A stretch of 64,000 nt of DNA from an uncultured Chloroflexia bacterium. Its GTDB lineage: Bacteria > Chloroflexota > Anaerolineae > JAAYZQ01. Of the stretch, positions 34,450 to 62,427 are shown one piece after another (position 1 is the first letter of the stretch; each line of letters begins with the position of its first letter). Location: positions 352,001 through 416,000 of the forward strand of contig CAVOXA010000014.1 of NCBI GenBank assembly GCA_963700285.1. Reading direction: 5' to 3'. A program made the translations under genes and the position numbers. The notes beneath the pieces were generated by a model, which was not told the DNA's origin, made no database searches, and saw only the letters and a list, made by a program, of their open reading frames with translations.

Positions 34450-35484
34450 TCAAAGCCAGGGCGTGATGACCGTGCGGACCTCGCCACCAAAGAGGTGCAG
34501 TTGGTCCATCGCCGCATTGATGGCTCCGGCTTGCAGAGGAACCGTCCGCGTCACCACGTTCGACAGGTCGAGGGTCCCTTGTGCCACAAACTCGACCAGC
34601 AAGGGCAGCTCCCAGAGCAGATGGTCAGAGCAGCCAATGACCTCGGCCTCTTTGGCCAAGAGTTCACGATAGGAGTCTATCTTGAAGGGTTCAGCGGCGA
34701 TGCCAACGATCACCGCCCTGCCCAGGACGCCCAGGGAGCGCAGGGCCTGCTCCATCGTCTCGGGCAGTCCGATGAGTTCCAGGGCTACGTCCACGCCCCT
34801 GCCGCCAGTGAGGCGTATGATCTCGGCCACGGGATCTGCTAACGCGGCGTTGACCGGGATGGCCCCGCAGTCCCGGGCCAGGTTGAGTTTTTCTTGGTTT
34901 ATGTCAACGGCATAGACATGCAGCGCGCCAAAGGCCCGGGCCAGTTGGACGGCCGAAATGCCCAGCCCACCGGCGCCAAACAGGGCGACCGTTTCACCAG
35001 CTTGCAGCCGTGCTTTGCGCAGGGCGTGGAACGAGGTGGAGGATGAGCACATCAACACAGCACCTGCCTCAAACGATACCTCGTCGGGAAGCCGAACCGC
35101 GTTGCGGGCCGGTACGATGATGTATTCGGCATAGCCACCGTCACGATCCTTGCCCAGCATCTCGCCCTGGGAGCAGAATTGCTCGTTGCCTGTTCGACAA
35201 AAACCACACTCGCCGCAGGTCACCAGGTAGTGCAGGCATACCCTATCACCCACCGATACGGCGCTCACCTGAGCCCCCACCTCCTGGACGGTACCGGCGA
35301 TCTCGTGACCCAGTGTCTGGGGCAGAGCGCCTACCGGCGAGGTACCAGCCCGGTAATGGACGTCCGAGTGGCAGATGCCGGCTGCCTTGACCCGTACGAG
35401 GATGTCTCTTGCGCCTACCTGCGGGATGGGCACAGCCCGCATCTCTAGCGGTTTTCCAATCTCAACCAGTTGAACAGCCTGCAT
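34450..35484 (-). CDS. Zn-dependent alcohol dehydrogenase (MDR family)
   Basis: GICHSD, GHE, CGECGFC..C structural Zn, GAGGLG; RBS AGGAGG. Confidence 0.92.
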   Translation of the reverse strand: MQAVQLVEIGKPLEMRAVPIPQVGARDILVRVKAAGICHSDVHYRAGTSPVGALPQTLGHEIAGTVQEVGAQVSAVSVGDRVCLHYLVTCGECGFCRTGNEQFCSQGEMLGKDRDGGYAEYIIVPARNAVRLPDEVSFEAGAVLMCSSSTSFHALRKARLQAGETVALFGAGGLGISAVQLARAFGALHVYAVDINQEKLNLARDCGAIPVNAALADPVAEIIRLTGGRGVDVALELIGLPETMEQALRSLGVLGRAVIVGIAAEPFKIDSYRELLAKEAEVIGCSDHLLWELPLLVEFVAQGTLDLSNVVTRTVPLQAGAINAAMDQLHLFGGEVRTVITPWL

Positions 35485-35537
35485 CTGGTCCTCCTGTGTC
35501 ATACGCTCGTGATGGGCAAAGGTCCCCAATCGGCGGT

Positions 35538-35571: not shown

Positions 35572-36915
35572 TCAGGCCAGTAGTTGTGCAAACTGGCGCA
35601 CGTCACCTACCTGATCAAAGGCCCAAACCATCTCAACCAGCTCGTCGATCTGGCCCTCAGCCAGGACGTGGCCAGCGAGCCAGCGGAATTTACCTGCCAG
35701 CCGTTCCTCATCCCAGCCCTGCTGGGGGTAGTTGATGTTGCCCTCGACCATACCCGACTCGTGGATGGTGCCATCCTCCAGAGTGATGGTCACGCGAGCC
35801 GCGTATTTGCCCTTGGGATCTCCCTTCTGAAGCAGGCGGCTGAGTTCATTCAGGTCGCCGGCTTCCACGAGTTCGACCTTTTCGGCCAGGCTGCGTATCT
35901 TTGAGTCACCGAAACGATGGTCCAGAACCTGGGCGGGACCCACCTCTCCGTCAACCAAGAGGGCCGCCAACGGCCAGGCCAGGCTGAACTGCGCTTCTTC
36001 GGTTGTGGTCGGGAGTTCTGTTCCCAACCGGACCGTTTGGTGCGGCGCTTCGACGTATAGGTGGGCGATCTCTGCTACGTCGATGCCGTGGGTAGCAACC
36101 AGTTGCTGCGCCCCCTTCATCGCCGCGTGGTTCCAGGCACAGCAAGCATAACCTTTCCAGGCAACGCCGCCGGCCATGATATAGGTCTGTCCGATGTCGC
36201 CGACCCAATCGCTGTACTCTTGCAGGCCCAGGACACTGGGAACACCGGTGAAGCCCCTTGCTGCCAATTGGGCAGCCGTGATGCCGGTCATCGCCCCCCA
36301 GCCAATGCCGTGCTTGACCATGGCCGGATCGTCAATGTCGCGCATCATGGGCAGGTTGGGCGCATGGTAGGCAGCGATGCCAAGGGCGTGCCGTGTCTGT
36401 TCTGGGCTGAGTCCCAGAAGGTGGGCAGCCACAGCCGCGCAGGCCACTGAGCCCCAAGAGCCACATGCCTGGTAGACCTCCTGGGTGGCGTGCCAGATGC
36501 GAGCAGTTCGATGGGCGACCTCGTAGCCGACGACCATTGCCGTAAGCATTTTCGACCCGCTTGCGGCCAGCGCCTCGCCCAGGGCCAGCGCGGTGGGGAA
36601 GATCTGCGCGCCAGGATGGCCCTTGGTGTACAGGGCACAGTCATCAATGTCCACGCCGTTGGCGGTGTAGCCGTTGGCAAAAGCCGCACCGATGGCTGAG
36701 GCGCGCCGCCCATGGAGGAGGATCGTCGCCTCTTGCCCGGACCATGTTTCCGCGGCGTACTGGGCGGTGATGCGGCTGACGGGTGTCAGCGTGCCAGCCA
36801 GTGTCGCCCCCAACGTGTCCAGCAGGGTCATGTGGGCTGCGCGCTGCACTGAAGGTGACAGCTTTTCCCAGGTTATGTCACTTACGAAGCGAGCCACAAT
36901 TTCGTTGCCGTTCAT
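35572..36915 (-). CDS. MmgE/PrpD family protein
   Basis: LLDTLG, DIDD...GHPG, VGYEV, K.YACC...H, AQFSL. Confidence 0.9.
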   Translation of the reverse strand: MNGNEIVARFVSDITWEKLSPSVQRAAHMTLLDTLGATLAGTLTPVSRITAQYAAETWSGQEATILLHGRRASAIGAAFANGYTANGVDIDDCALYTKGHPGAQIFPTALALGEALAASGSKMLTAMVVGYEVAHRTARIWHATQEVYQACGSWGSVACAAVAAHLLGLSPEQTRHALGIAAYHAPNLPMMRDIDDPAMVKHGIGWGAMTGITAAQLAARGFTGVPSVLGLQEYSDWVGDIGQTYIMAGGVAWKGYACCAWNHAAMKGAQQLVATHGIDVAEIAHLYVEAPHQTVRLGTELPTTTEEAQFSLAWPLAALLVDGEVGPAQVLDHRFGDSKIRSLAEKVELVEAGDLNELSRLLQKGDPKGKYAARVTITLEDGTIHESGMVEGNINYPQQGWDEERLAGKFRWLAGHVLAEGQIDELVEMVWAFDQVGDVRQFAQLLA

Positions 36916-36991
36916 GATGATTGCCTCAGTGTTGGATAGTCTGTGACTAGGCCCGGCCGGCAGCGGCCGGAGACCTGGCCGAACAGGTCTT

Positions 36992-38419
36992 CTAGCTCCC
37001 GAGAATATGGGCAATCTCCTGGCGTTGGCCGGCGGGCAATGGGGCCGGCCTGTGCTCCTCAATGATGGCCACTGTCTTTTCTCGCAATCGCTGGCCGAGC
37101 CTCTCACTGCCAGCGGCCACCCAATCGTCGGCCCGCCGCCTGTCAAAAAGACCGGGCCGCCACAGTTCGCGAAAATGCTTCAACGTGTGCCCTGCTGTCA
37201 AAAAGTCGCCGCCCGGCCCAACCTGGTGGATCACGTCCAACGCCAGGGACTCGGCGTCCAGCGACAGGCCCTGCATAAAGCGGCGCATCATTGAGATGAC
37301 CTCGGCCGTAAAGACGACCATCTCCGGGGAAGTCGTCAGGCCGGCCTCCAGGTAGCCGACGTCGTGCACCAGGTTTCCTCCCGCCAGTAGCGCCACCTGC
37401 ACCGAGAATGCAGCGTCGGCCGCCGCCTGCTCGTCCATGGCACAACTATCGGAGTGGCCGGCATAGCCCCAGGTTGGAAGGCCGTAGTACCGCCCCATCT
37501 CGGCCACAGCCACCCGGGCCAGTTGAAACTCGGGGGCACCGTAAACGCTGATGGTGCTTTTCATGTCCATGTGATGCAGTCCGCTGCCATAGACAAAGGG
37601 AGCGCCGGGGCGCACGAGCTGGTGCAGGACCAGGCTTGACAGGACCTCGGCGTTGCCCAGAGCCAGCCCACCGGCCAGGGTCACAGGCGCCGTGCCGCCC
37701 ATCATTGGCGCCGGGGAATGGACGATGGGCAGGGCCTGCTCGGCCATGTACAGCAGCTTGCCGGTAGCGGTTTCAGAATGCGAAAGGGGGGTCGTTGGCT
37801 CCGAGTAGAGAAGCAGCGTGGGATTCAGACGCAAGGACTCCATCCCGCCCGCGGGTACCGAGGCCATCGCGGCGATGGCTTCGCAGTCAGCCCGGTCGTC
37901 ACAGACAAAGACGATGGGCTTGCTGGTATGCTCCAGCATCAGCGAGAATTGGAGGCGGTAGGCGTTGGCGGTCGTCCAGTCAGAGGGGATGCCCATGGAC
38001 ATGCAGAAACCCAGTTCAGGCAGGGCGTCCACGACGTGGATGGCGTCGACCACGTCGGCAACCGTGAACGAGCGATGCTGCCCGGTGCGGGGATCGAGAT
38101 AGTTGGGGCAGTCTGAGCCCGGGCCAAAGCTGACCTGCCTGCCTTCCAGGGAAACAGAGACTTGATCGCTGCCCCGGCGGCATAGCGCGATCCGGGAGGG
38201 AGCCTGCTTCACAGCCCACTCTACCAGGCCGGCCGGAAAGCGGACCAGATTTGTGTCGGTGATGAGGGCGTCGGTCTGGCTCAGGAGGGCCAACGCTCCG
38301 TCGTGATGGATGCGCACGCCGGTGCGCCTCAGAATCTCCAGTGATGCGCGGTGCACGACCTCACACTGCTCTCGGCTGAGCATCGCCAGACGGGGAACTG
38401 CCAGGGTTTCATCTGTCAT
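36992..38419 (-). CDS. MttB-superfamily methyltransferase 1 (non-pyrrolysine)
   Basis: H.ASLEIL..TGV, GGTAPVTLAG, YGAPE, AGHSDS, GNLVHDVGYLE, VGPGG.FL. Confidence 0.92.
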   Translation of the reverse strand: MTDETLAVPRLAMLSREQCEVVHRASLEILRRTGVRIHHDGALALLSQTDALITDTNLVRFPAGLVEWAVKQAPSRIALCRRGSDQVSVSLEGRQVSFGPGSDCPNYLDPRTGQHRSFTVADVVDAIHVVDALPELGFCMSMGIPSDWTTANAYRLQFSLMLEHTSKPIVFVCDDRADCEAIAAMASVPAGGMESLRLNPTLLLYSEPTTPLSHSETATGKLLYMAEQALPIVHSPAPMMGGTAPVTLAGGLALGNAEVLSSLVLHQLVRPGAPFVYGSGLHHMDMKSTISVYGAPEFQLARVAVAEMGRYYGLPTWGYAGHSDSCAMDEQAAADAAFSVQVALLAGGNLVHDVGYLEAGLTTSPEMVVFTAEVISMMRRFMQGLSLDAESLALDVIHQVGPGGDFLTAGHTLKHFRELWRPGLFDRRRADDWVAAGSERLGQRLREKTVAIIEEHRPAPLPAGQRQEIAHILGS

Positions 38420-38629: not shown

Positions 38630-39952
38630 CTAGTGGCCGGTAACTTCGGCAATGGAGTCGCGCAATCGTGTTACGATCTCGTCTACCTGGGATTCCGTGA
38701 TGACGAAGGGGGGGCCGACCAGGATGGCGTCCCCATCCCTACCATCCGCGAGACCGGTACCAATGTAGACGATAAGGCCGCGCGCCATGCAGGCGGCCTG
38801 AACCCGTTCGGCGATCCTATCGGCCCGGGGATAGGGTTGGCGGCTTTGCCGGTCTGCGACCAGCTCGACGCCCGCCATCAGGCCCAAACCGCGGACATCG
38901 CCTACAGCAGAAAGCTCGCGCAGGGATTCGAATTGAGCCAGCAGGTGGTCCCCCATGGCTGCGCTGCGAGCGACCAGATCATGAGCGCGCAGGTGGCGGA
39001 GCACGGCCAGGGCAACGGCCGCTCCCAGTACGCCATTGGCATAGGTGAAACCGTGGGCGAAATTTCCAGAACCGTGGCGGATTGCCGCCACCATCTCCCC
39101 GCTGCACAGAACCAGGCCCAGCGGGTAATAGCCACTGCTGGCTCCCTTGGCGGTTACCAGGATGTCGGGAGTGACATCCCAGTGCTCTACTCCAAACCAG
39201 CGCCCGGTCCGGCCGAAACCGGTCATCACTTCGTCGGCAATGAGCAACACACCATAGCGGTCACAGATCTCGCGCACGCGGGGCCAATATTCCGGAGGGG
39301 GCACCGCGGCGGCCAGGGTCGCACCGACGACCGGTTCCCCGACAAAGGCCATCACTGTTTCCGGTCCTTGGCGAAGGATCTCTGCCTCCAGGGCAGCGGC
39401 GCAGGCAGTGTCGCAATCCGGGTAGGACTGCCCAAATGGACAGCGGTAGCAATAGGCTGGAGGGATGTGGGCCACGTCCAGCAATAACGGCGCATAGGCC
39501 GTGCGCAGGGGCGTACGACCGGAGACCGACAGCGCGCCCAGGGTCGATCCGTGATAGCTTCCCCAACGCGCGACGATCTTGGAGCGACCCGGTTCCCCAC
39601 GGGAGACGCACACCTGCCGGGCCAGCTTGAGTGCTGTCTCCATGGCCTCGGAGCCGCCAGACACCAGATAGATCCAGGGCTCGGGAATCGGAGAGACCTG
39701 GCCCAATTTCCCGGCATAATTCTCCAGCACGTCGCTGGTGAATTGGGTGCCATGGGCAAAGGCTACCTGCCGCGCCTGGACTGCCAGCGCTTCGACGATC
39801 TGGGCCACTCCGTGGCCCAGGTTGACCACCAGAGCGCCACCAGCAGCATCCAGGTACTGCCGGCCGGCGGTATCATAGAGGTAGACGCCCTCGCCACGCT
39901 GGACAACTGGATAGTCATGCGCCAGCCTGCGGTGGAAAACGTGCCCGCTCAT
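38630..39952 (-). CDS. Class III PLP aminotransferase
   Basis: YLDAAGG, SGGSEA, SYHG.T, DEVMTGFGRTG, AKG, RGLGLM. Confidence 0.92.
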   Translation of the reverse strand: MSGHVFHRRLAHDYPVVQRGEGVYLYDTAGRQYLDAAGGALVVNLGHGVAQIVEALAVQARQVAFAHGTQFTSDVLENYAGKLGQVSPIPEPWIYLVSGGSEAMETALKLARQVCVSRGEPGRSKIVARWGSYHGSTLGALSVSGRTPLRTAYAPLLLDVAHIPPAYCYRCPFGQSYPDCDTACAAALEAEILRQGPETVMAFVGEPVVGATLAAAVPPPEYWPRVREICDRYGVLLIADEVMTGFGRTGRWFGVEHWDVTPDILVTAKGASSGYYPLGLVLCSGEMVAAIRHGSGNFAHGFTYANGVLGAAVALAVLRHLRAHDLVARSAAMGDHLLAQFESLRELSAVGDVRGLGLMAGVELVADRQSRQPYPRADRIAERVQAACMARGLIVYIGTGLADGRDGDAILVGPPFVITESQVDEIVTRLRDSIAEVTGH

Positions 39953-40773
39953 GGTTGCACCTGCGCCAGACCCAGGATCTTCCGCGTCTCGCCGGGCGTG
40001 GCCACCGGCCGGCCGAGTTCGGCCGCCAGGCGTGCGACACGGGCAACTAGCTGCTCATTGGTAGCCAGTTCTCCCTTGCGATAGTACAGGTTATCCTCCA
40101 GGCCCACGCGGACGTGACCACCCATGACTATTGCCAGGGCGGCCATCGGCAGTTGCCAGCGACCAGCCCCCGCCACCGTCCAGGTCGAGCCCGGTGGGAT
40201 CGACTCGCTCAGGAACAGCAGGTTTTTGGGTGTGGCCGGCAGCGATCCTGGGATGCCGAGCACAAAATCAAAGTGAAAAGGCGCTACGGCCAAGCCCTTC
40301 TTTGCCAGAAGCAGCGCGTTGGCGATCATGCCAGGTTCAAAGACCTCCATCTCGGGTTTGGTACTCGTTTCCACCATGGCCGCGGCCAGGTAGTCGATGA
40401 CCTCGAAAGGATTGGCATAGACGCGATCGGGAAAGTTCATGGAACCCGTGGTCAGCGAAGCCATCTCGGGCCGGATCAAGCGTACGGCTGCGGCCCGCTG
40501 CTCTGGGTCCATTCCCGCCCGCCCGCCGGTAGAGATCTGGACGATGAGATCGGTGCGCGCGGTGATCTGCTCATGAATGCGAGCAAAGACCTCTGGATCG
40601 AGGGTCGGCCGGCCCTGCCCATCGCGGGCGTGGATATGGATCAGGCTCGCGCCGGCCTCGCGGCAGCAGACGGCGACATCCGAGATCTCTTCCGGTGTTA
40701 CCGGAAGCGCTGGGTTTTGGTCTTTGGTCGGCACATTGCCTGTCGGAGCCACGGTGATGATGAGATTGCTCAT
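39949..40773 (-). CDS. Beta-keto acid cleavage enzyme (BKACE/Kce, DUF849)
   Basis: ITVAPTG, HIHAR, ISTGG, GSMNF, GHVRVGLED. Confidence 0.92.
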   Translation of the reverse strand: MSNLIITVAPTGNVPTKDQNPALPVTPEEISDVAVCCREAGASLIHIHARDGQGRPTLDPEVFARIHEQITARTDLIVQISTGGRAGMDPEQRAAAVRLIRPEMASLTTGSMNFPDRVYANPFEVIDYLAAAMVETSTKPEMEVFEPGMIANALLLAKKGLAVAPFHFDFVLGIPGSLPATPKNLLFLSESIPPGSTWTVAGAGRWQLPMAALAIVMGGHVRVGLEDNLYYRKGELATNEQLVARVARLAAELGRPVATPGETRKILGLAQVQP

Positions 40774-40910
40774 GAGTACGAACCCTCGCCGGTGTTTAGC
40801 TATCACACCGGCCTGAAAGAGCCGGTGTTAGAAAAAGGGCCGGTGCTAGCAATTGAAACCGATAGAAATGTTCCCAGTGGTGCCGGTTTGCAGCGGTGCA
40901 GGGATCGCAC

Positions 40911-42362
40911 TCACCCAGCGAGAATGCCACTTGGAATGCTTTCTCCAATTGCGAGAGGCTGCGCGCCCCGGATCTGAGCCAGCGTGCGTGCCATCTCGTT
41001 GTGTACCAGACTGATCGCCTCGTCCACTCCCATGCCCGGCTTGGCCATGATGATCTCTGGCCGCGTTGCCAGGGCGACGTGGGCAGACACCCGGGCCGAG
41101 AGATCCGTTTCGATGTAGCTTCCGCCCAGGAAGGCACCTATACCACCTCTTTTGCAGGCCAACACTGCCTCCACGACATTGTGAATACCACCCAGGTCCG
41201 GCATCTTGATCTGGATCATGTCCGCCGCTCGCGCTTCTACAAAGGCGCAAATGTCCTCCAGGGTGTTGGCCCATTCGTCGGCCACCAGTTGAACCCGCAT
41301 CTTTCGCAGTGCAACATAGTTGCGCAGTGTCTTCATGGTCTCGATCTGGGCGGCGCGGCTGTCCAGGACCATGGGGCTCTCGATGCGGAGCTGGTAGGGT
41401 TGGGCCGCGGTCTCCCAGGCGTAAAGGAGCCCCAACATGCGACCCAGGCTGTGCTCGCAGATCTGCGCCAGGGCGCCGTGCACATCAAGGTGAATCGCCG
41501 GATGATAATCCTCCCCGCCCAGCTCGCCAATCCTGCCAGACAGCCAGCGGATATAGCGCGTTAGCTCTGTACCGTCCATCCCGAGCTGTCCAGGAATGTC
41601 ATCCACCAGAGCATGGGGCAGGGAAGCAACCCGGCGAGCGATCATCTTTTCCGCGTTGTAGTAGCGCTCGCTGCCCGATTGTGCGTGAATGGGGATGGCC
41701 GCATCAGGCAATGAAAGCTCCCACTCAGCGGATACTACTTCGGCCATCGTTGTCCCACGAGCAAGAGCCACAGCCTGGAGCAGAGCCTGGCCGAGGCCAT
41801 AGCGCACCGCCGCATGCAGCGGGCGTTGGACGACGACGGTGTCTGTGGCCGCCCCTTCTTCCTGGGCCGCGCGCAACAACTTGGCGGGCGCCGTGATGAG
41901 GGCCCGTCGGGAGAAACCCTGGCTACGATCGGCGGGAGGCTGAGGTGGTGTGGGACTGCTGATTTCGACGCGCTCGGTGAGGGAGTCAATCTGTGCCGAG
42001 AGGGCGCGAAAGCTGGTTAGCTCGCGGCCCTGGAGCGCCGGAGCCACGACGCGCTGGATGGTGTCCAGGCCGTTCTCAGCACGAAAGACAGGATCGCGCC
42101 CAGATTTGGCGGCGTAGGCTACGGCCACGCAGTCACCCCAGGCGACACGTTTGCTTTGCCCTGAGGCGGTTGCGGGTTCATCCAGTACCAGACCCACCGA
42201 CACGACCTCGGCGACCTCGCGGACCGCACGGAATCCGGGCGTGACAGGCGCGGCCGTGAACCTCAATGGCAAAGGCACGTGTTCAGCCTGAAGGGCGGCC
42301 AGGTCGTCATAGTAACCCGCGCCAACGGCCGGTACGGCCAGTACCTGCTTGATGGAGGTCAA
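40911..42362 (-). CDS. mal: Methylaspartate ammonia-lyase homologue with altered active site
   Basis: YYDD, GDC, GRDP, LH.AVRYG, AQSG, LPHAL, HLDV, RIE.PM, VADEW, QIK.PDLGG, AKPGMGVDE. The TTG start overlaps the upstream stop (TTGA). Confidence 0.88.
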   Translation of the reverse strand: MTSIKQVLAVPAVGAGYYDDLAALQAEHVPLPLRFTAAPVTPGFRAVREVAEVVSVGLVLDEPATASGQSKRVAWGDCVAVAYAAKSGRDPVFRAENGLDTIQRVVAPALQGRELTSFRALSAQIDSLTERVEISSPTPPQPPADRSQGFSRRALITAPAKLLRAAQEEGAATDTVVVQRPLHAAVRYGLGQALLQAVALARGTTMAEVVSAEWELSLPDAAIPIHAQSGSERYYNAEKMIARRVASLPHALVDDIPGQLGMDGTELTRYIRWLSGRIGELGGEDYHPAIHLDVHGALAQICEHSLGRMLGLLYAWETAAQPYQLRIESPMVLDSRAAQIETMKTLRNYVALRKMRVQLVADEWANTLEDICAFVEARAADMIQIKMPDLGGIHNVVEAVLACKRGGIGAFLGGSYIETDLSARVSAHVALATRPEIIMAKPGMGVDEAISLVHNEMARTLAQIRGAQPLAIGESIPSGILAG

Positions 42363-43351
42363 GACCAAGGTTCCATGGAAATGGCCGAGGAGGGGCAGGC
42401 ATTGGCGCAAAGACCACAACCCCAGCACCTCTCCGGATCATAGCGTACCTGGTCCTTGGTTTTGCCCTCGACCTCTATGATTGCCCCGTCGTGGTAGAAG
42501 GCGTCAAAGTGACAGCGCTTCACACATGCGCCACAGAGGTTGCAGAGATCGGCATCATAGACGGCGATGTAGCGACTCCTGGGCCAGATGCCCTTGCTGC
42601 CTAGCTCCTGGGCGGCCCGAAAGGGATAGCAGTCACAGGCACAGCAATTGCAGATGGCGTGCAGGCCCCTCGTCCGCCATTCACTGTCGCCGGTGTGCAT
42701 CAGGCCTTTTTTGTCCGCCCAGCGGACGAGTTCTATGGCCTCATCGACGGTTACCCGCCGCCCATGACCCCTGGCCAACGCCCCCAAGGCACCTTCGTCC
42801 ATCCAGGTACAGACTTCCACTGGCCGGTCGCAGTGCTGTCCCAACCGCCGGCAATCACAGGGCTGGATGACAATGTGCTGGGCGGCTCTGAGCATCTCCT
42901 CTACCTCGCCCAGAAGCAGCACGGTATCGTTGGGCAGAGCATTCTCGGCTTCCAGGCCCTGCATCTTGCGCTGGATGTTGGTCCGGTGCCGGGAGATGAA
43001 CTCGTCCAGGAACCGGCGGTCGATTCGCTGGCGATCCTCCGCGGGTATGTCATCCCAGTTTTCGTGGATGGCAAAGTGGTTCAAGAAAGTGTAAAAGCTG
43101 GTGGGAGAGTAGGCCGTACCATCAGCCTGTTCCTCCTTGTCCACGATGGAGCGTTCATAGCAGCGATGCAGCAAGGCGGCGGCCTGGTCGTGCTGGAGGC
43201 CCAGCAGCTCGGATACTTGCGACTGAGTCACCAACCTATCATGAGTTGAGACCACCAGTTGCATTTCCAGATCATCGAACATGATCGGAAGGTAGGGCTC
43301 AACCTCTTCCCACACGCCAAATACACTCACAAAGGCATCTACCAATGCCAT
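42359..43351 (-). CDS. Multi-Cys 4Fe-4S binding protein
   Basis: CDCR...C, ICNCCACDC, CNLCGACVKRC, CWGCGLCANACP. Confidence 0.85.
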   Translation of the reverse strand: MALVDAFVSVFGVWEEVEPYLPIMFDDLEMQLVVSTHDRLVTQSQVSELLGLQHDQAAALLHRCYERSIVDKEEQADGTAYSPTSFYTFLNHFAIHENWDDIPAEDRQRIDRRFLDEFISRHRTNIQRKMQGLEAENALPNDTVLLLGEVEEMLRAAQHIVIQPCDCRRLGQHCDRPVEVCTWMDEGALGALARGHGRRVTVDEAIELVRWADKKGLMHTGDSEWRTRGLHAICNCCACDCYPFRAAQELGSKGIWPRSRYIAVYDADLCNLCGACVKRCHFDAFYHDGAIIEVEGKTKDQVRYDPERCWGCGLCANACPSSAISMEPWS

Positions 43352-43382
43352 CTGACTATCTCCAGTCTGCAGGAATCTGCTG

Positions 43383-44834
43383 CTAGCTCTGTCCATTGAT
43401 CCAGGCCTGCTCACGCTGAACAATCTGCTTGATCGCCCGCTGAACCTCTGGCGGCAGGGGCTCGGGCTGGTGGCTCTCCAAGATCTTGTTCACCTGTTGG
43501 GCTGCCCTTTCCTCCATGGGCGTAGCACCCCGTTCCACCCATTGAGCGTGCGTGCCCTTGTCAGCAAGCTTGGAGTAGTAAGGCTCGCGAAAGTGCCTCA
43601 GGGTGTGCTGATGGCCAAGATAGTCGCCTTCCGGACCCAGCTCGTCGATGACATCCAGGGCCAGGGTCTCGTCGTCCACCGGCACACCGGCCGTGGCGGC
43701 TCGAAGCCAGCCAATCGTGTCGTTGGCCATGACCTGCAACTGGAGGGAGCCCTGCAGTCCGGAATCCATGAAGCCAACGTCATGGACGAGATTAGCCCCG
43801 TGAAGAAGGGCCGTCATCAGGCTGATGGTCGCTTCCATGCCACATTGATGATCCAAGACTTTGGAATCGGTCGAGCCTCCCAGACCAAAAACGGGCAGAT
43901 CATAATACCGGCCCATCTCGGTGGGGACTCCCTGTTCGTCCGCCAGGACATAGTTGCCGACCATCGTCTTGAGATTGTAAGGACCGCCGTTCCAACCTGG
44001 GACCGCCACAGGCGTTCCCGCACGGACCAATTGGGCCAGAACGATGCCCAGCAGCGTACCGGCATTCATGGAAGCCATGCAGCCAGCCGTCGTGGCCGGT
44101 GAGTTGACGCCTCCGGCATTGAGGGGAATGTAGAGCATGGGCAGGCCTTTGGCGGCCAGGTACATGCACTTGCGCAGCGCCTCCTCGTTGGCGACGAGGC
44201 CAGAGGTAACATTGATGTAGCAGGTGGCAAAGGGACGTTTCTGGAAGGCCTCGTCACCGCCGGCTACGGCTTCGCACATCTCGATGGCGGCCACGCAGCC
44301 CTCAAAGTCAGGGGTGACAAAGACGATGGGCTTGGTTGTACCGTTGAGCATGACCTCCATTTGATAGCGGTCATAGATGCGCTGATCGACGTCCTCGGGC
44401 AGGAAGAGCGACATGACAAACTCGATCTCGGGTAGGGCATCCATGACGGCCACAGCCTCGACTACGTCCCGGAGCACGGGCCGTCGCCGCTGTCCGGTGC
44501 GATGGTCAAGGACATTGAGACAGTCGGAGCCGCCGCCGCAATAAGTCCTGTAGCCCCAGGCCCGAATGGCAACCTGCCCGTGGCGGTCATGGAGGGTCAT
44601 GCCTTTGGGGGCAAGGGAGAGCGCCTTTTCCACCATATAGGCCGGAATACGGACGCGGACGCCCTCCACCTGCGCTCCGGCCCTGGCCAGCAGATCTCGC
44701 GCTGCTGCGTGATGCGCATCGACGCCAACACGCTCCAAGATCTCCAGGCTGGCCATGTGGATCTTTTCGCATTCGGCCCGGCTCATACGGGCATAGTGGG
44801 CACTCGTCCGGCTCGAACCATGGGTTTCGATCAT
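43383..44834 (-). CDS. MttB-superfamily methyltransferase 2 (non-pyrrolysine)
   Basis: IHMASLEILE, GGSDC, GGSTDSK, GANLVHDVG. Confidence 0.92.
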   Translation of the reverse strand: MIETHGSSRTSAHYARMSRAECEKIHMASLEILERVGVDAHHAAARDLLARAGAQVEGVRVRIPAYMVEKALSLAPKGMTLHDRHGQVAIRAWGYRTYCGGGSDCLNVLDHRTGQRRRPVLRDVVEAVAVMDALPEIEFVMSLFLPEDVDQRIYDRYQMEVMLNGTTKPIVFVTPDFEGCVAAIEMCEAVAGGDEAFQKRPFATCYINVTSGLVANEEALRKCMYLAAKGLPMLYIPLNAGGVNSPATTAGCMASMNAGTLLGIVLAQLVRAGTPVAVPGWNGGPYNLKTMVGNYVLADEQGVPTEMGRYYDLPVFGLGGSTDSKVLDHQCGMEATISLMTALLHGANLVHDVGFMDSGLQGSLQLQVMANDTIGWLRAATAGVPVDDETLALDVIDELGPEGDYLGHQHTLRHFREPYYSKLADKGTHAQWVERGATPMEERAAQQVNKILESHQPEPLPPEVQRAIKQIVQREQAWINGQS

Positions 44835-44877
44835 GCTACTCGCCTCATTCTCAAGATAGAGCGACCTACGGGAGGCA

Positions 44878-45663
44878 CTAGACGTGCCCGTAGTAGTCGC
44901 GATGCACCGCCACGGAGTAGGCATAGTCCAGGAGCGTACCCCAGGTGAATATGGGGATGTCGATCTCACGCTGAATGGCACGAGCGAAAGGCTGCATGCC
45001 GGTGCATTCCAGCATCATGGCCCCCATGTTGGGGTGAGAACCGTAGAAATCAACGGCGACCTGGACGAATTCCTGTTCGGCTTTGTCATAGTAGGCACCC
45101 GGCGGATCGGTCCGCTCGGGCTCGTACCACAGGTGCTCGAACTCGGGGCAGCGACCATCGTCCTCGGCTCCAGCGACCACATAGTTGCTGCCCGGCTGGA
45201 TGCCGACCGATTCCAGGTGGACCGGCAGCAACTGGGCCTCACGCGCCACGAGAATGCCAACAACCCTTTGCGGCCCGATGAGCTGTTGGGCAAAGGGCAC
45301 TTGCAGCAAGCTGGACAAGAATACAGGCACATCGACAAAGCCAGCGATGGCCTTTTGAAAGTAGGCAAAATAGCCGCATTCGGCGGCGACGGCCCGGCAG
45401 CCCATGCCCTCCAGTTTTTTGGCGGCGCGCTGGATGGGCTCCAGACAAGGCGATTTGTCCTCCTCGTGGACCAGGGCCCAGATGTCCACTCCCTCGGCAA
45501 TCTCGTACTGGATCGGGAAGGGGAAGGCGCTGGCGTTGCGCACGTCGCCAGGGAAACCAGGGTAGACGTCGTCCAGGATGATGATGCCCAAGCCCATGCC
45601 ATAGCAGCGATGGTCTTTGCGGGCCTTGATATAGTTGATGCCCATGTCTCGATTTTGATACAT
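44878..45663 (-). CDS. Asp/Glu/hydantoin racemase family protein A
   Basis: GIIILD..P..PGDVRNA, AECGYF, SSLLQVP, LECTGM (two Cys). Confidence 0.8.
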   Translation of the reverse strand: MYQNRDMGINYIKARKDHRCYGMGLGIIILDDVYPGFPGDVRNASAFPFPIQYEIAEGVDIWALVHEEDKSPCLEPIQRAAKKLEGMGCRAVAAECGYFAYFQKAIAGFVDVPVFLSSLLQVPFAQQLIGPQRVVGILVAREAQLLPVHLESVGIQPGSNYVVAGAEDDGRCPEFEHLWYEPERTDPPGAYYDKAEQEFVQVAVDFYGSHPNMGAMMLECTGMQPFARAIQREIDIPIFTWGTLLDYAYSVAVHRDYYGHV

Positions 45664-47103: not shown

Positions 47104-48558
47104 CTATCTGTTGGCAATGTCTTGCAGTTTCTGCACCACAGCAGAAGGCAACGGAGCACCAGTCCGGTGGTTCGCGAGGATCTCCCGCACCTCATGGTTT
47201 GCCCGCTGCTGCACCGTGGTCCCTCCTTTAGACTGCCAACGCAAGTAGTTGTTGCGATCCATGAGTCTCGGCACCCAATCATCACGGACGTGCTGAAGCG
47301 TGTGCCTGGATTCCACAAAGTTGCCATCGGGCCCGATCTGGTGGATGAGATCCAGAGCCAGCGTGTCCTCGCTGATCTCCAGCTTGCTCAGATAGCGTCT
47401 GAGCCAGCCGACGAGCTCGTCGCAATACAGGAGGAACTCGAGCGAACCGGTCGTCGCGCAGTCCAGATAGCCTAGATCATGGACCAGGTTGACGCCATTT
47501 ATCGCGTTGTCAAAGAGCGTCAACGCAGCCTCGGAGGCCGCCTGGGCATCAAAAACCTTGCTATCGCTGCAACCTCCAATCCCGAAGGTTGGTATCCCGT
47601 AGTAATGGGCCAGGTCCCAGCAAAAGGGACCCGAATCCGGCGCAGCATAGAGGCTGACCATCGAGCGCATGTCCATGCCACCTCCGCCTGGGTCGGCACG
47701 GAGGAAGGGCGAACCCTCGCGCTTGAGTTGGGACAGAACCAGACCCGCCAACTGTCCCGCATTGCCCACTGCCAGCGCCGCGGCGACCGTCATGGGTGCC
47801 ATGGTGCCCCGCGACTTGCTGGGCGAATAGATGGTCGGCAGGTTGCGCTCGGCAGCGTACAACAGCCTGCTCACACTTTCATCGTTGTGCTGAAACGCCG
47901 ACACAACGTTCACATAGTTGACGATGAAGGGATAGCGCTCCAGTTGCTCCAGCCCACCGGCAACGGCACTGGCCATATCTATGGCGTAGACGGTGCTGGA
48001 TGCCTCGAGGCCTACAAACACGATGGGTTTGGTACTTTCTTGCAGCATGACGGCCATCTGGTGCCGCTCGTACGCCTCGTCGGGCACGTCTGAGGGCATG
48101 AACATGGACATGATAAAATCGTAGCACGGCAAGGAATCAACCAGGCGGACCGCCTGGACCACGTCGTCCAGAACAGCCAGGCGGCGCTCAGCCGTATCCA
48201 GGTCCCAGATGTAGCTGCAGTCAGACCCTGGACCAAAGTAGGTGCGATAGCCACCAAGGGCCATGGCCCGCCTGCCAGTCTGGTCGAAGATGGTGATGTT
48301 CTTGGGCACTGTGTGGAGCGCCCAGTCCACGAGATTGGGCTGGATGCGCACCAGGGTACCATCGCTAACAGTGGCCCCGGCCTTTTTGAATAGGTCGAGG
48401 GCCTCCTGATTATGGAAGCGCATGCCGGTACGGGCCATGATCTCCAGGCTCGCCTCGTGCAGCAGGCAGATCTGGTCCTCGGTCAGGCTACGGAACTGCA
48501 CTGGACGGTACTGGCTGCAGCGGTCATAGGGCGCAGGGCCTCGCGGTCTTTTAGCCAT
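47104..48558 (-). CDS. MttB-superfamily methyltransferase 3 (non-pyrrolysine)
   Basis: LHEASLEIM, FGPGSDC, GGCSDSK, NLVHDLGYLD. Confidence 0.92.
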   Translation of the reverse strand: MAKRPRGPAPYDRCSQYRPVQFRSLTEDQICLLHEASLEIMARTGMRFHNQEALDLFKKAGATVSDGTLVRIQPNLVDWALHTVPKNITIFDQTGRRAMALGGYRTYFGPGSDCSYIWDLDTAERRLAVLDDVVQAVRLVDSLPCYDFIMSMFMPSDVPDEAYERHQMAVMLQESTKPIVFVGLEASSTVYAIDMASAVAGGLEQLERYPFIVNYVNVVSAFQHNDESVSRLLYAAERNLPTIYSPSKSRGTMAPMTVAAALAVGNAGQLAGLVLSQLKREGSPFLRADPGGGGMDMRSMVSLYAAPDSGPFCWDLAHYYGIPTFGIGGCSDSKVFDAQAASEAALTLFDNAINGVNLVHDLGYLDCATTGSLEFLLYCDELVGWLRRYLSKLEISEDTLALDLIHQIGPDGNFVESRHTLQHVRDDWVPRLMDRNNYLRWQSKGGTTVQQRANHEVREILANHRTGAPLPSAVVQKLQDIANR

Positions 48559-50002
48559 ATTGCGCCTCCGCCCGTTCGATGATATCACGCAGCGCCCTGG
48601 CGGCTCCTTCCGGCAGAGGTTCCACCTTGTGCTGAGAGAGGATCTCTTCCACCCGCTCAGACGCCCGCTCCTGGAGGCTCTTTCCACCGCTGGCCTGCCA
48701 GCCAGCATAGTTGTCCCGATTCATCAGCGTCGGATACCAGCGCTCGCGAAAATGTTTTAGCGTGTGTTTGCTGTCGAGGTACTGGCCATCGGGGCCGACC
48801 TCGTCGATCAGATCCACGGCCAGGGCTTCGTCGCTGACGTCCACGCCCCGGAGACAGTGGTCAATCCAACCCAAGATCTCGTCGCAGATGGCCAGTTGTG
48901 CCAGAGAATAGCAGAGCCCCGACTCCAGGTAGCCCAGATCGTGGACGATGTGACCGCCGGTCATGGCCGTCACCATGAGGGTCAAGGCCGCCTCGATCCC
49001 GGCCTGCAGGTCCAGACACTTGGAGTCGCTGCAGCCGCCGAGGGCAAACATGGGCAGGCCATAGAAATGGGCCATCGCCTGGGCGATGCCCCGCCGGTCG
49101 GGCTCCGCGTAGGGCTGGACCGTGGTCTTCATGTCCAGCGCGCCGGCACCCCAGCCAGCCATGACGTAAGGCGCTCCCTCGCGCTTGAGCTGAGAGAGTA
49201 CCAGACCCACCAGGGCGCCAACATTCCAGACCACTTGGCACCCGGCTAGGGTGATGGGCGCCGTCGTACCACCCTGTCCTACAGGAATATAGAGTGCCGG
49301 CAGGCCCTTACCCGCCAGGTACAGCAGTTTCTGCAGGGCTTCCTCGTTGTGCCGTAGACCCGTCGTTACGTTGATGTAGCAGGCCACAAAAGGGTTCAGG
49401 CGCAGCGCGTCCGCACCGCCCGCCACCGCCTCCGCCATCTGTACCGCGTCCACGCAACCCGAAAACTCGGTCGTCACAAAGACAATGGGTTTGGTCGTAT
49501 GGTTCAGCATAGCCTCCATCTGGTAGCGATCGGCCACCATCTGGGGCACGTCCACGGGCAGCACCATGGACATCACAAAATCGATGTTCGGCAGCGCATC
49601 GGCCACGGTCATGCCTTCGACGATGTCGTTCAGCACCGGAGCCCGCCGCTCTCCCGTGCGATGGTCGATGATGTTCAGGCAGTCGGAGCCGGGACCAAAG
49701 AAGCTCCGGTAGCCTTCCACCGGCATCACGCGCTCGCCATACCGGTTGCAGAGGACGACACGCCTGGGCACTGTGGTGAAGGCCTTTTCTACCATGCCCG
49801 AAGGGATACGCACCCGATTCCCATCTGATATATGGGCCCCGGCCTGGGATACCAGATCGATGGCCTCCTGCTCGTAGAGGCGGACCCCGGTACGCTCCAG
49901 AACCTCCAGGCTAGCCAAGTGGATCTTTTCACACTGCTCATCCGACATACGCTGAAACTGCGCGCTGAGAAACGTGCGGTCGTTGGTGCGAATGCTCACC
50001 AT
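48551..50002 (-). CDS. MttB-superfamily methyltransferase 4 (non-pyrrolysine)
   Basis: IHLASLEVLE, FGPGSDC, GGCSDSK, HDLGYLESG. Confidence 0.92.
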   Translation of the reverse strand: MVSIRTNDRTFLSAQFQRMSDEQCEKIHLASLEVLERTGVRLYEQEAIDLVSQAGAHISDGNRVRIPSGMVEKAFTTVPRRVVLCNRYGERVMPVEGYRSFFGPGSDCLNIIDHRTGERRAPVLNDIVEGMTVADALPNIDFVMSMVLPVDVPQMVADRYQMEAMLNHTTKPIVFVTTEFSGCVDAVQMAEAVAGGADALRLNPFVACYINVTTGLRHNEEALQKLLYLAGKGLPALYIPVGQGGTTAPITLAGCQVVWNVGALVGLVLSQLKREGAPYVMAGWGAGALDMKTTVQPYAEPDRRGIAQAMAHFYGLPMFALGGCSDSKCLDLQAGIEAALTLMVTAMTGGHIVHDLGYLESGLCYSLAQLAICDEILGWIDHCLRGVDVSDEALAVDLIDEVGPDGQYLDSKHTLKHFRERWYPTLMNRDNYAGWQASGGKSLQERASERVEEILSQHKVEPLPEGAARALRDIIERAEAQYG

Positions 50003-50040
50003 GATTGCCTCCTATGCGTTTGCAGGGCGCCCTTGCCCGG

Positions 50041-51508
50041 CTATGATACGAACCTGATGCTTGCCAGCTCCTTTTCGGCAGCCTTTGCGATCTCGTTGAT
50101 CTTTCGGTGCACGTCCTCCGGCAATGGCGTAGGTTCGTGCGTGGCCAAGATGTCCCGGGCTTTCTGGGTGACGACTTGCTCGTAGGTCGTGCCGCCCCGG
50201 CTCGCCCAGGATTCCGGGCTGTCTCGGTTCACATACTTGGGCTGCCACAGATCTTCCTGGAAATGGGTCTTGGTATGCATGCACCGTCAAAAAGTGCCCA
50301 CCAGGGCCGACCTGACGGATGATATCGACGGCCAGTTTCTCGCGGCTGATATCAAAGCCTCGCACAATACGCTTGACGTAGCTAATGATCTCGGAGCACA
50401 TGACGATGGACGCTGGATTGCTGAGCAGGCCCTGGCCCAGATAACCGACGTCGTGGATCAGGTTGGCCCCATCCAGTGCCGACATGAGCGTGGCAAAGGC
50501 ATGCTCCATGGCCGCCTGGGCGTCCAGCGTATGCGCATCGCTGCCAACCGTCGACCACATGGGCAAGCCATAGTAGTGAAAGATGTCGGCAAAGGCCGAG
50601 TTGGTCAGTCGCACATCGGGGGCGCCATAGCAGATGGTACCCTTTTGCATGTCCAGGGGAGCAGCTACGACACCGGAAACGATGGGCGCGCCCTTGACCC
50701 TGAGCTGGTGCAGGACGATGCCGCTTAGCGCCTCGGCAATGGCCACCACCAGCCCGCCCGCCAGCGTAACGGGGATGCTGGCACCCAGAATGTCACCGGG
50801 TGTGTAGTTGATGGGGACACCCTTCTCAGCACAGAGGAAGAGCTTGCGGACCGCACCCTGAGAGTGCATTAGCGGCGCCGTCGGCTCGGAGTAGTGAATG
50901 AGGAAGGGCTTTTCACGCAAGGCATCCTCGCCGCCAGCCACGGTTGCGGCCATGTCAATAATGACGGCCAGGTCCTCTTTGCCCGCGGCTGTGAAGAACA
51001 TCGGCTTGGTCGAGTTCTCCATCATGGCCTTGGCGCACTCGACATACATGCTGTTGCGAGCCACGTCACTGGGCAGGGCGAAGGAGGCGATAAAGTCAAT
51101 CTCCTGGCAATAGTCAGCAACCCTGGAGGCATTGATCACATCCTGAAGCTTGGATGGCCGGGTCCGTCCGGTCTCCAGGTCTTGGGTGCTGATCAGATCG
51201 GTCCCGAGCCCAAAGTGGATGTTCCTCCCCTCCAGGCGCATGGCTTCCTGCCCTTGCTGGTCATAGATGGTAATGCGTGAGGGGGCGCTGGCGATGCTAT
51301 CCTCTACCAGCCAATTGGGAATCAGGACGTTGTTGCCGCCCCTCACCCGACAGCCGGCGTCTTTTAGCATCTCGATGGCTTCCTGATCAAGCAACCGAAC
51401 GCCCACAGTCTCCAGGACCTCCAGGCTGGCTCGATGTATCTCCTGGATCTGCTCCTCCGTCAGAAGCCTATACTGAGGCACACATTGCGTTCTAACACCA
51501 CTATTCAT
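50041..51508 (-). CDS. MttB-superfamily methyltransferase 5 (one frameshift near 50280)
   Basis: MttB motifs up to GPGGHFL; the family C-terminus (HTKTHF...H.P.PLP) continues in ORF 50041..50280. Confidence 0.85.
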
Positions 51509-51619
51509 GATACTCAATCCTCCCTGATTCGTTGGCTAAAGATTGGCGGAAAGGGGGCCGGCTGGCTGCCTACGGCAGTGCGCCAACCCCTGATGCTCCG
51601 ATAGACAACTTTTCCGCAC

Positions 51620-52900: not shown

Positions 52901-52976
52901 TGATGATCCTTTCACTAGTTATGTACAGTATGCGAATCGCGGTCTTTTTTTGGGGCTTTCGCCCTGGAGCTGCGTA

Positions 52977-60428: not shown

Positions 60429-60429
60429 G

Positions 60430-61770: not shown

Positions 61771-62427
61771 TCAGTCAGTCTCCCGCACCTCCAGGATCTC
61801 GACATCCGGGACCCGCTCCAGCACAGCTACGATCTCGTCTTTGGAAACACCGCGGACTTTGAAGACATAGTCCCAGTGATCGGGCTGCTTGGGCGTCCGG
61901 ACGTAGCCGCTGGCATAGATCCCCCAACCCTGCCCGGCAATGGCATTCGTGACATCGGCCAGCACGCCGTAACGATCTGTCGACCGGAAGGCGACGCGGA
62001 CCCCGGATACGTGCTCCCCCAGCAATTCGGTCAGGTGAGCCAAGAGATCGGTGTCGGTGATAATGCCCACCACAATGCCTTCATCGAGGACTGGCAGCCC
62101 GCCGATCTTTTTTTCGACCATAGTCTTGGCTGCATCTTCCAGCGTAGCGTCTGAACAGGTGGACACTACATCTTTGGCCTTGATCATCACGTCCTGGACA
62201 GTTAGTTCCGTCAGAGTGCGGGCGATCTCCCACAGGTCCAGGCTGCCCAGCCTACCCGGATCCACGAGCAGCGTCTGTCGAGTAACCAAGCCAAGCAAGC
62301 GCTTGCCATCACCGACAATGGGCAGGTGGCGGATGTCGTTCTCGCCCATGAATCGCTGGGCGTCGACGATGCACATCGTCGGCTGAACCATGAGCGGATG
62401 TCGTGTCATATAGTCTTTAACCAGCAT
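61771..62427 (-). CDS. CBS-pair plus ACT domain protein (AcuB-like)
   Basis: MLVKDYMT, IRHLPIV, IGGLPV, GIITDTD, C-terminal ACT-like D..GVLA.V. Confidence 0.85.
   Translation of the reverse strand: MLVKDYMTRHPLMVQPTMCIVDAQRFMGENDIRHLPIVGDGKRLLGLVTRQTLLVDPGRLGSLDLWEIARTLTELTVQDVMIKAKDVVSTCSDATLEDAAKTMVEKKIGGLPVLDEGIVVGIITDTDLLAHLTELLGEHVSGVRVAFRSTDRYGVLADVTNAIAGQGWGIYASGYVRTPKQPDHWDYVFKVRGVSKDEIVAVLERVPDVEILEVRETD

What the first reader, a model, noticed from the sequence alone, without database searches (positions are those of the whole stretch)
40911..42362. Methylaspartate ammonia-lyase homologue naturally carrying the Q73A-equivalent change
Seen: GDCVAVAY (Ala codon 42117-42119) versus GDCAAVQY in Clostridium tetanomorphum MAL as I recall it; also IPIHAQSG (F170H), GAFLGGSYIET (Y356F, T360S, C361Y) and IMAKPG (L384M). 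Catalytic Lys, His and the Mg ligands are kept. Known: engineered Q73A MAL accepts substituted amines. No glutamate mutase is in the window. Inference: a natural C-N lyase for N-alkyl/N-methyl aspartate-like substrates releasing an amine, fitting the MttB context.
Basis: partly seen in the sequence, partly recalled or inferred. Interest (0 to 1): 0.8.

Follow-up and report, generated by a model that had tools for sequence, protein, structure and literature searches.

The report
Methylaspartase relative with widened amine pocket
This gene encodes a methylaspartate ammonia-lyase relative that keeps the catalytic residues but carries alanine where chemists engineered alanine to admit bulky amines, and it likely strips a methylated amine rather than ammonia from an aspartate-like compound in an unstudied breakdown pathway of sediment bacteria.

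Summary
Observation confirmed. Gene 40911-42362(-), 483 aa, is MAL-family with Ala at Gln73 (codon 42117-42119), as in the engineered Q73A crystal form. H170, F356, S360, Y361 and M384 are as reported; catalytic residues and Mg ligands are intact. Ala is not a family constant: 119 close homologues have Ala 50, Ser 48, Glu 21, never Gln. They form an Anaerolineae clade with a ~50-residue insert. In 48 loci the gene sits with MttB methyltransferases (39) and an ABC importer, never beside glutamate mutase. A sister clade sits with a betaine-type transporter, an Fe/2OG oxygenase and an aldehyde dehydrogenase. Best reading (0.45, inferred, no assay): amine-lyase on an N-methylated aspartate giving fumarate; aspartate betaine from homoserine betaine is the boldest candidate (0.17). 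Against: three genomes have a glutamate mutase with this as their only MAL; catalytically dead copies persist in the same operon slot; no pyrrolysyl-tRNA synthetase was found. The scan noted this clade and the sister operon before on other DNA. New variant of a known kind; interest 0.6.

The parts
40911..42362 (-). MAL-like lyase gene, 483 aa, TTG start
   Evidence: TIGR01502 414.7 bits vs cut-off 286.15; PF05034 + PF07476; AF2 pLDDT 87 and Foldseek top four hits all MAL
42117..42119 (-). Ala82 codon GCC, equivalent to CtMAL Gln73 (Ala in engineered 3ZVH)
   Evidence: unchanged in contigs of runs X1 and X2
42105..42107 (-). Lys86 (CtMAL Ala77) in the gating loop; Lys in 74 and Arg in 14 of 119 homologues, and common in the BCCT sister clade
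41823..41975 (-). About 50-residue insertion absent from canonical MALs, with invariant Arg152-Arg153 (41904-41909) starting a predicted helix; low pLDDT
41679..41687 (-). His226 (CtMAL Phe170; His in 119 of 119) and Gln228 (Gln172, kept)
41613..41615 (-). His250 = catalytic His194
41277..41486 (-). Mg ligands Asp293 (41484-41486), Glu328 (41379-41381), Asp362 (41277-41279) = D238/E273/D307
   Evidence: (119 of 119 each)
41205..41213 (-). Gln384 and Lys386 = Gln329 and the base Lys331
41046..41132 (-). Phe411 (Y356), Ser415 (T360), Tyr416 (C361), Met439 (L384): C1-carboxylate site and former 3-methyl pocket
42359..43423 (-). Upstream 4Fe-4S protein whose stop overlaps the MAL-like start; neighbour in 14 of 48 loci
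43383..44981 (-). Non-pyrrolysine MttB-family methyltransferase (longest ORF; true start probably later)
44878..45663 (-). PRK07475 Asp/Glu-racemase-superfamily protein with both catalytic Cys motifs (second copy 56373-57161); neighbour in 17 of 48 loci
39949..40806 (-). Beta-keto acid cleavage enzyme (kce-like); recurs only with the Tyr361 subtype (6 of 15 vs 0 of 43 loci)
38630..39952 (-). Class III aminotransferase (PRK07483); not a constant neighbour
36992..38419 (-). Non-pyrrolysine MttB paralogue; Trp at the MtgB Arg312 position, His at the pyrrolysine position
35572..37146 (-). MmgE/PrpD-family protein (longest ORF; true start near 36915); neighbour in 7 of 48 loci
34450..35529 (-). Zn-dependent alcohol dehydrogenase; neighbour in 12 of 48 loci
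47104..51517 (-). Three further MttB paralogues (47104-48708, 48551-50002, 50012-51517); two more at 57298-58749 and 58956-60473
61771..62427 (-). CBS-domain protein followed upstream by a Dpp/Opp-type ABC importer that runs past the window end; CBS neighbour in 28 of 48 loci

Best explanation
The protein is an enolase-fold, MAL-type enzyme with all catalytic residues and Mg2+ ligands intact, and it likely eliminates a methylated amine rather than ammonia from an N-methylated aspartate to give fumarate. Shown: fold, residues, clade and gene context. Inferred by analogy with MAL: the C4 carboxylate binds Mg2+/His250/Gln384, Lys386 removes the C3 proton, and the C2-nitrogen leaves as a methylamine. 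Ser415, the backbone of residue 416 and Gln228 would still hold the C1 carboxylate. Loss of Gln73 would make room for N-methyl groups, and His226/Phe411/Met439 would replace the 3-methyl pocket because the substrate would have no 3-methyl. Inferred pathway: the ABC importer brings in a methylated C4 amino compound, the Zn alcohol dehydrogenase and Mo oxidoreductase raise it to the dicarboxylate, and the MttB paralogues take methyl groups to corrinoid before or after the lyase step.
For: Gln73 is absent in 119 of 119 close homologues (A50/S48/E21). K331, D238, E273, D307 and H170 are 119 of 119, H194 118, Q172 116, Q329 115 and S360 118. Q73A is the engineered CtMAL variant that accepts alkylamines (PMC7586795 passages). 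Q73/Q172 bind the amino group, T360/C361 the C1 carboxylate, F170/Y356/L384 the methyl group, and T360S is neutral (PMC7241714 passages). No mutase lies in 48 clade loci, and all 13 mutase-adjacent MALs keep Q73. No mutase was found in the own genome or in 27 of 30 other Anaerolineae genomes with the clade. MttB occurs in 39, ABC ATPase in 28, Mo enzyme in 15 and ADH in 12 of 48 loci. The sister clade (Ser/Ala73, Ser172) lies with this clade on one side of a branch with SH-aLRT 100 and has ALDH in 24, BCCT in 19 and a HalD-like oxygenase in 19 of 26 loci. Precedent for an ammonia-lyase relative that releases trimethylamine from an amino-acid betaine: HBTL and ergothionase (bioRxiv 10.1101/2025.08.13.670108 passages).
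Against: No activity was measured, and substrate was not docked because no coordinates were available. Position 73 varies (A/S/E, and T, C, V once each in 48 loci), which also fits relaxed constraint. In genus g225 the Ala73 protein is the only MAL in 5 of 5 genomes, 3 of which have a glutamate mutase, and hutH/hutU lie beside it in 2 of 2 regions examined. Catalytically dead copies hold the same operon slot in G574 and G761, and 47 of 108 full-length representatives are such dead forms. No PylS over cut-off was found in the genome, so free trimethylamine has no known methyltransferase there. None of 83 neighbouring MttBs has the carboxylate-binding Arg312 of characterised betaine methyltransferases, so they do not look like ordinary demethylases of a carboxylated betaine. 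The window's own subtype recurs with kce and other genes that this pathway does not explain.
Confidence: 0.45

Rival explanations
1. It is a dehydratase/hydratase or epimerase acting on a hydroxy acid of the same pathway, with no C-N cleavage. Examples are D-malate left after removal of the onium group from carnitine-like compounds, or carnitine/crotonobetaine itself.
For: Both amine-binding residues change in the sister clade (Ser73, Ser172). Oxygenase + ALDH + BCCT would equally yield a malate-type acid after oxidative release of the amine (inference). His170 is invariant in the Anaerolineae clade and could serve as general acid. A two-Cys racemase/isomerase-type protein is a neighbour in 17 of 48 loci. 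kce, SDRs and CoA-transferases accompany the Tyr361 subtype, as in carnitine breakdown through a 3-oxo acid (recalled).
Against: Position 170 is Gln in many sister-clade members, so no conserved general acid is evident. Gln172 and the C1-carboxylate loop are kept in the Anaerolineae clade. kce is absent from 43 of 43 Cys361 loci.
Confidence: 0.2
2. It is still an ammonia-lyase for 3-methylaspartate or aspartate, and the loss of Gln73 is compensated by neighbouring changes such as Lys77, Glu48 and Asp198.
For: It passes the TIGR01502 equivalog cut-off, and all catalytic residues are kept. In 3 of 30 genomes a glutamate mutase is present and this is the only MAL, with histidine-degradation genes beside it in G517.
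Against: No mutase was found in 27 of 30 genomes or in the own genome. In the three exceptions the mutase genes lie on another contig, and in G517 they sit next to ORFs I read by eye as aspartokinase and aspartate-semialdehyde dehydrogenase (no family scan). All three methyl-pocket positions are changed, and Y356 and L384 mutants raise Km for the natural substrate. The genome has an aspartase/fumarase-superfamily gene (536.8 bits, under the aspA cut-off 681.2).
Confidence: 0.17
3. Its main role is non-catalytic (ligand sensing, scaffolding or regulation of the importer/methyltransferase island through the Arg-Arg insert and a clade-specific surface), and the amine pocket is drifting.
For: 47 representatives have lost Lys331 (0 of 47 keep it) yet 40 of 47 keep the twin-Arg-type insert motif. 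Dead copies stay in the same operon slot. Partly degenerate forms exist (L021, L027, L048, L137).
Against: Among the 119 nearest homologues the catalytic set is almost invariant, including in this protein. The sister clade lacks the insert but shares the pocket changes.
Confidence: 0.1
4. It cleaves a monocarboxylate onium compound (DMSP, beta-alanine betaine or similar) to acrylate plus dimethylsulfide or trimethylamine.
For: The PRK07475 neighbour is the bacterial subfamily closest to the algal DMSP lyase Alma1 (PMC10349084 passages). One sister locus has a DddP-like M24 protein (234 bits vs cut-off 600).
Against: The C1-carboxylate site is conserved (Ser360 118 of 119), which a monocarboxylate would not need. 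PRK07475 proteins are stated to lack DMSP lyase activity. The M24 protein was seen in 1 of the sister loci annotated.
Confidence: 0.08

Closest known systems
3-Methylaspartate ammonia-lyase, EC 4.3.1.2 (C. tetanomorphum 1KCZ, Citrobacter amalonaticus 1KKO)
   Same: Fold (Foldseek TM 0.90-0.95 on the target, 36-38% identity), Mg ligands, Lys331/His194/Gln329, Gln172 and the C1-carboxylate loop.
   Different: Gln73->Ala, Phe170->His, Tyr356->Phe, Cys361->Tyr, Leu384->Met, Ala77->Lys; ~50-residue insert; no linked glutamate mutase; MttB/ABC context; separate clade.
Engineered CtMAL-Q73A (PDB 3ZVH)
   Same: Ala at position 73; best sequence match in the PDB. The variant accepts linear and cyclic alkylamines.
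   Different: Natural protein with at least six further pocket changes; the clade also uses Ser or Glu at 73. No activity data.
Histidine betaine trimethylammonia-lyase and ergothionase
   Same: Works-like precedent: beta-elimination of trimethylamine from an amino-acid betaine in anaerobes.
   Different: Different fold (ergothionase-like, not enolase) and an imidazole substrate. Not a member.
EDDS lyase / iminodisuccinate C-N lyase
   Same: Natural amine-lyases giving fumarate from N-substituted aspartates (EDDS lyase).
   Different: Aspartase/fumarase superfamily (recalled), not enolase fold; no sequence match.
MtgB/MtcB/MtpB/MtyB betaine demethylation systems
   Same: Non-pyrrolysine MttB genes, corrinoid proteins and an importer in the island.
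   Different: 0 of 83 neighbouring MttBs have Arg312 (Phe 30, Trp 30, Met 18, Tyr 5); the trimethylamine MttB 7XCL has Tyr there.

Membership tests
MAL family (enolase superfamily) | MAAL_N + MAAL_C domains, TIGR01502 above cut-off, MAL fold | tested here: met
MAL family (enolase superfamily) | Mg ligands Asp238, Glu273, Asp307 | tested here: met
   D293, E328, D362
MAL family (enolase superfamily) | Catalytic Lys331, His194, Gln329 | tested here: met
   K386, H250, Q384
3-methylaspartate ammonia-lyase EC 4.3.1.2 (function) | C1-carboxylate site Thr360/Cys361 backbone and Gln172 | tested here: met
   S415, Y416, Q228; T360S neutral in CaMAL
3-methylaspartate ammonia-lyase EC 4.3.1.2 (function) | Gln73 in the amine pocket | tested here: not met
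   Ala82; 0 of 119 homologues have Gln
3-methylaspartate ammonia-lyase EC 4.3.1.2 (function) | Hydrophobic 3-methyl pocket Phe170/Tyr356/Leu384 | tested here: not met
   His226/Phe411/Met439
3-methylaspartate ammonia-lyase EC 4.3.1.2 (function) | Glutamate mutase to supply the substrate | tested here: not met
   none in own genome (89% complete), 0 of 48 loci, 3 of 30 other genomes
3-methylaspartate ammonia-lyase EC 4.3.1.2 (function) | Deamination of 3-methylaspartate to mesaconate | not testable with these tools
   needs enzyme assay
Amine-lyase on N-substituted aspartate (proposed) | Release of an alkylamine and fumarate | not testable with these tools
   needs enzyme assay; only residues and context support it
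HBTL/ergothionase or EDDS-lyase families | Ergothionase-like or aspartase-type helical fold | tested here: not met
   all hits are enolase-superfamily
MtgB-type acidic betaine methyltransferases (neighbours) | Arg312 for the substrate carboxylate | tested here: not met
   0 of 83; His348 83 of 83
Pyrrolysine trimethylamine methyltransferase (neighbours) | Pyrrolysine at the active site and PylS in the genome | tested here: not met
   sense residues at that site; no PylS over cut-off

The most novel reading that the evidence does not exclude
The clade and its BCCT-linked sister are aspartate-betaine trimethylamine-lyases: the last step of an undescribed route that breaks down N,N,N-trimethylhomoserine (head group of the betaine lipid DGTS; also a cyanobacterial osmolyte, recalled). 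C4 would be oxidised to the aldehyde (Fe/2OG oxygenase in aerobes, Zn alcohol dehydrogenase in Anaerolineae) and then to the acid (ALDH or Mo oxidoreductase), and trimethylamine would be eliminated to give fumarate. This would be an enolase-fold trimethylamine-releasing enzyme and a natural source of amine-accepting MAL biocatalysts.
Probability: 0.17. Interest if true: 0.85.

Novelty: new variant of a known kind. Interest (0 to 1): 0.6.

Why it matters
The papers read here describe MAL as a 3-methylaspartate enzyme, and its amine-accepting form as a laboratory mutant. A natural clade that has dropped Gln73, in about 30 of 401 Anaerolineae-class genomes searched, offers ready-made candidates for making N-substituted aspartates. 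It also marks an unassigned catabolic island with many non-pyrrolysine MttB enzymes of an unusual pocket type. If the substrate is a betaine, it is a new source of methylamines in sediments and fresh water. A simple UV/NMR assay on a small substrate panel would decide it.

Tried and rejected
Complex prediction of the MAL-like protein with the CBS neighbour gave no answer (score 0.00) and is not used as evidence. No RNA holder was listed for the gene. The promoter/terminator scan was at chance level. PDB sequence searches for the PRK07475 protein and the HalD-like protein gave nothing useful, and the Atlas gave only family names. A malate/lactate dehydrogenase search of the genome and a pterin-binding search (two hits on another contig) did not bear on the substrate. 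The Raj & Poelarends 2013 mutagenesis paper is not held and the Raj 2012 Q73A paper was not read, so Q73A kinetics on the natural substrate are not cited. Paper searches found no description of this clade or of the BCCT/HalD operon (0 papers). No title or abstract start on homoserine-betaine catabolism appeared among the 20 of 167 and 20 of 43 listed (listings only). Rejected: sequencing error at the codon (relative L118 also has Ala). Rejected as general explanations: lysine fermentation or kce-linked pathways, because kce is confined to the Tyr361 subtype; and ergothioneine breakdown, because the neighbouring hutH/hutU score as ordinary hutH/hutU and occur in 3 of 48 loci.

Full report
Observation. 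The gene lies at 40911-42362 on the minus strand and encodes 483 aa from a TTG start that overlaps the upstream stop codon. A PDB sequence search returns four MAL chains first; the best is 3ZVH, titled the Q73A mutant. In the alignments, residue 82 (codon GCC, 42117-42119) is Ala in the column of Gln73 of 1KCZ and 1KKO. The protein passes TIGR01502 (414.7 vs 286.15). An AlphaFold2 model (pLDDT 87.4) matches MAL structures best. Contigs from 2 of the 4 runs laid cover the codon unchanged.

The clade. The homologue search found 1883 proteins at E<=1e-20 among 7998 candidates scored and listed the best 120. In the 119 left after removing the window's own record (65-90% identity), position 73 is Ala 50, Ser 48, Glu 21 and never Gln. 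His170, Lys331 and the Mg ligands are 119 of 119, His194 118, Ser360 118, Gln172 116, Gln329 115 and Met384 115; position 361 is Tyr 62 or Cys 54. So the finding is a clade-wide loss of Gln73 with an intact catalytic core, not a single natural Q73A. The gene is single-copy in the genome. The clade profile matched 31 of 401 genomes of the class, own genome included. Non-Gln residues at 73 also occur elsewhere in the family: of 108 full-length 50%-identity representatives (kept from the 150 listed), 20 have Gln, and 47 are degenerate forms.

What the residues do. From passages of PMC7241714 and bioRxiv 10.1101/583088: Gln73 (through water) and Gln172 bind the amino group; Thr360 and the Cys361 backbone bind the C1 carboxylate; Phe170/Tyr356/Leu384 hold the 3-methyl group; residues 70-85 form a gating loop. 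T360S has near-native kinetics. From passages of PMC7586795: Q73A accepts linear and cyclic alkylamines. Passages of PMC10992142 added nothing that bears on the substrate. The pattern here, both carboxylate sites kept, amine pocket changed and methyl pocket made polar, fits an aspartate skeleton with a substituted nitrogen and no 3-methyl. This is inference.

Context. Of 563 confirmed stretches in the genome collection, 80 loci were returned; 48 belong to this clade and carry Chloroflexota/Anaerolineae titles. Co-directional neighbours in those 48, many cut by contig ends, are: MttB 39, ABC ATPase 28, CBS protein 28, permeases 25 and 20, solute-binding protein 18, PRK07475 racemase-like 17, Mo oxidoreductase 15, 4Fe-4S protein 14, Zn alcohol dehydrogenase 12, PrpD-like 7, hutH/hutU 3. 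Glutamate mutase E is in 0 of 48, but in 13 of the 37 more distant loci, all with Gln73. The own genome has no mutase E or S hit, about 40 MttB loci by my count of 51 hits with 11 in this island, two corrinoid proteins just upstream of the window, and the Mo enzyme orthologue on another contig. None of 83 full-length neighbouring MttBs (of 95 clustered) has the Arg312 that PMC13080624 (passages) reports as conserved in characterised betaine methyltransferases. They have Phe, Trp, Met or Tyr, like the Tyr of trimethylamine MttB, but no pyrrolysine, and no PylS passes cut-off. The window's subtype (Tyr361) recurs with kce in 6 of 15 loci against 0 of 43 Cys361 loci; these loci are kin and partly chosen by pattern, so this is descriptive only.

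Sister clade. A quick IQ-TREE tree of 79 proteins (degenerate forms and part of the representatives left out; SH-aLRT only, midpoint-drawn) gives the Anaerolineae group support 98 and a second group support 89. Both are separated from canonical and other MALs by a branch with support 100. The second group lacks the insert, has mostly Ser73, Ser172 and His329, and sits in a compact unit: ALDH in 24, BCCT transporter in 19 and HalD-like Fe/2OG oxygenase in 19 of 26 loci (9 and 17 picked from the 39). One locus adds a DddP-like protein below cut-off. Two different contexts, a betaine-type importer and N-demethylase-type genes, therefore point to a methylated onium or amine substrate. Both also supply an alcohol-to-acid oxidation upstream of the lyase.

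Mechanism and rivals. I commit to an amine-lyase on an N-methylated aspartate giving fumarate (0.45). The most specific version, aspartate betaine made from trimethylhomoserine, explains the four-gene sister unit step by step and the ADH plus Mo enzyme of the anaerobic island, but has no direct support (0.17, within the 0.45). Release of trimethylamine from an amino-acid betaine by a lyase has precedent in HBTL (passages). Against the main reading: in genus g225 the Ala73 protein is the only MAL in 5 of 5 genomes, and 3 of them have a glutamate mutase, although the mutase genes lie elsewhere. Copies lacking Lys331 and two Mg ligands occupy the same operon slot in G574 and G761. The MttB pockets do not match carboxylated betaines, and kce, the class III aminotransferase and the racemase-like genes are unexplained. 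Rivals: hydroxy-acid dehydratase or epimerase (0.20), ordinary ammonia-lyase (0.17), non-catalytic role (0.10), monocarboxylate onium lyase (0.08).

Known versus new. It is a member of the MAL sequence and fold family but fails two substrate-pocket features and the mutase link of EC 4.3.1.2. The paper searches (listings, open-licence library only) showed no description of this clade; subscription papers and supplements were not seen. Earlier notes of this scan describe the same clade and the sister operon in other genomes; I checked their main claims independently, and the DddP-like check was prompted by one of them. Verdict: new variant of a known kind, interest 0.6.

Noticed in passing
window 41823-41975 (-); proteins P0135, P0140, P0144 and others; L139, L140, L145, L146: A large set of catalytically dead MAL paralogues (47 of 108 representatives; 0 keep Lys331) retain the twin-arginine-like internal insert and, where checked (G574, G761), the same operon slot. 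This suggests a non-enzymatic role for the insert and for a clade-specific surface.
   Followed up: partly
window 44878-45663 and 56373-57161 (-): Two PRK07475 proteins, the bacterial subfamily closest to algal DMSP lyase Alma1, with both catalytic Cys motifs; function unknown, highly conserved across 17 loci.
   Followed up: partly
window 36992-60473 (-) and G000:C14 421148-430146: Eleven non-pyrrolysine MttB paralogues in one island; none of 83 in related loci has Arg312, and the pyrrolysine site holds mostly His, Cys, Ala, Ser or Met by subgroup.
   Followed up: partly
L050, L052, L055, L058, L059, L065, L072, L080, L161-L169, L186-L190: Compact BCCT + HalD-like oxygenase + aldehyde dehydrogenase + MAL-like operon in Bdellovibrionota and other bacteria; L166 adds a DddP-like M24 protein.
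   Followed up: partly
L158 (G517:C51) 4236-11142: Glutamate mutase L/S/E genes without a MAL, followed by ORFs that look by eye like aspartokinase, aspartate-semialdehyde dehydrogenase and an aminotransferase; possibly a separate methylaspartate pathway.
   Followed up: no
window 50012-52915 and 60430-63821 (-); L111: Several genes appear split by frameshifts (MttB C-terminus, class V aminotransferase, proline-racemase family, ABC genes). These may be assembly indels or pseudogenes; not checked against reads.
   Followed up: no
window 45706-47076 (-): Membrane-anchored reductive-dehalogenase-like Fe-S protein (TIGR02486 146 vs cut-off 160) that recurs with the Tyr361 subtype (6 of 15 loci).
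   Followed up: no
L145 4944-9203 (-): A 1420-aa ORF that starts like an MttB and matches the Mo oxidoreductase, a possible MttB-XDH fusion.
   Followed up: no
window 15156-16808 (-), 22659-27482 (-), 8941-12063 (+): A serpin, a STAND NTPase with WD40 repeats and a Ser/Thr kinase with BACON-like domain, unrelated to the finding.
   Followed up: no
L049, L053, L069, L082-L084, L086, L057, L060: Other mutase-free MAL subfamilies: Gln73-retaining ones beside ORFs that look by eye like CoA-transferase and acyl-CoA dehydrogenase genes, and an Ala73-type pair (L057, L060) in a different context.
   Followed up: no
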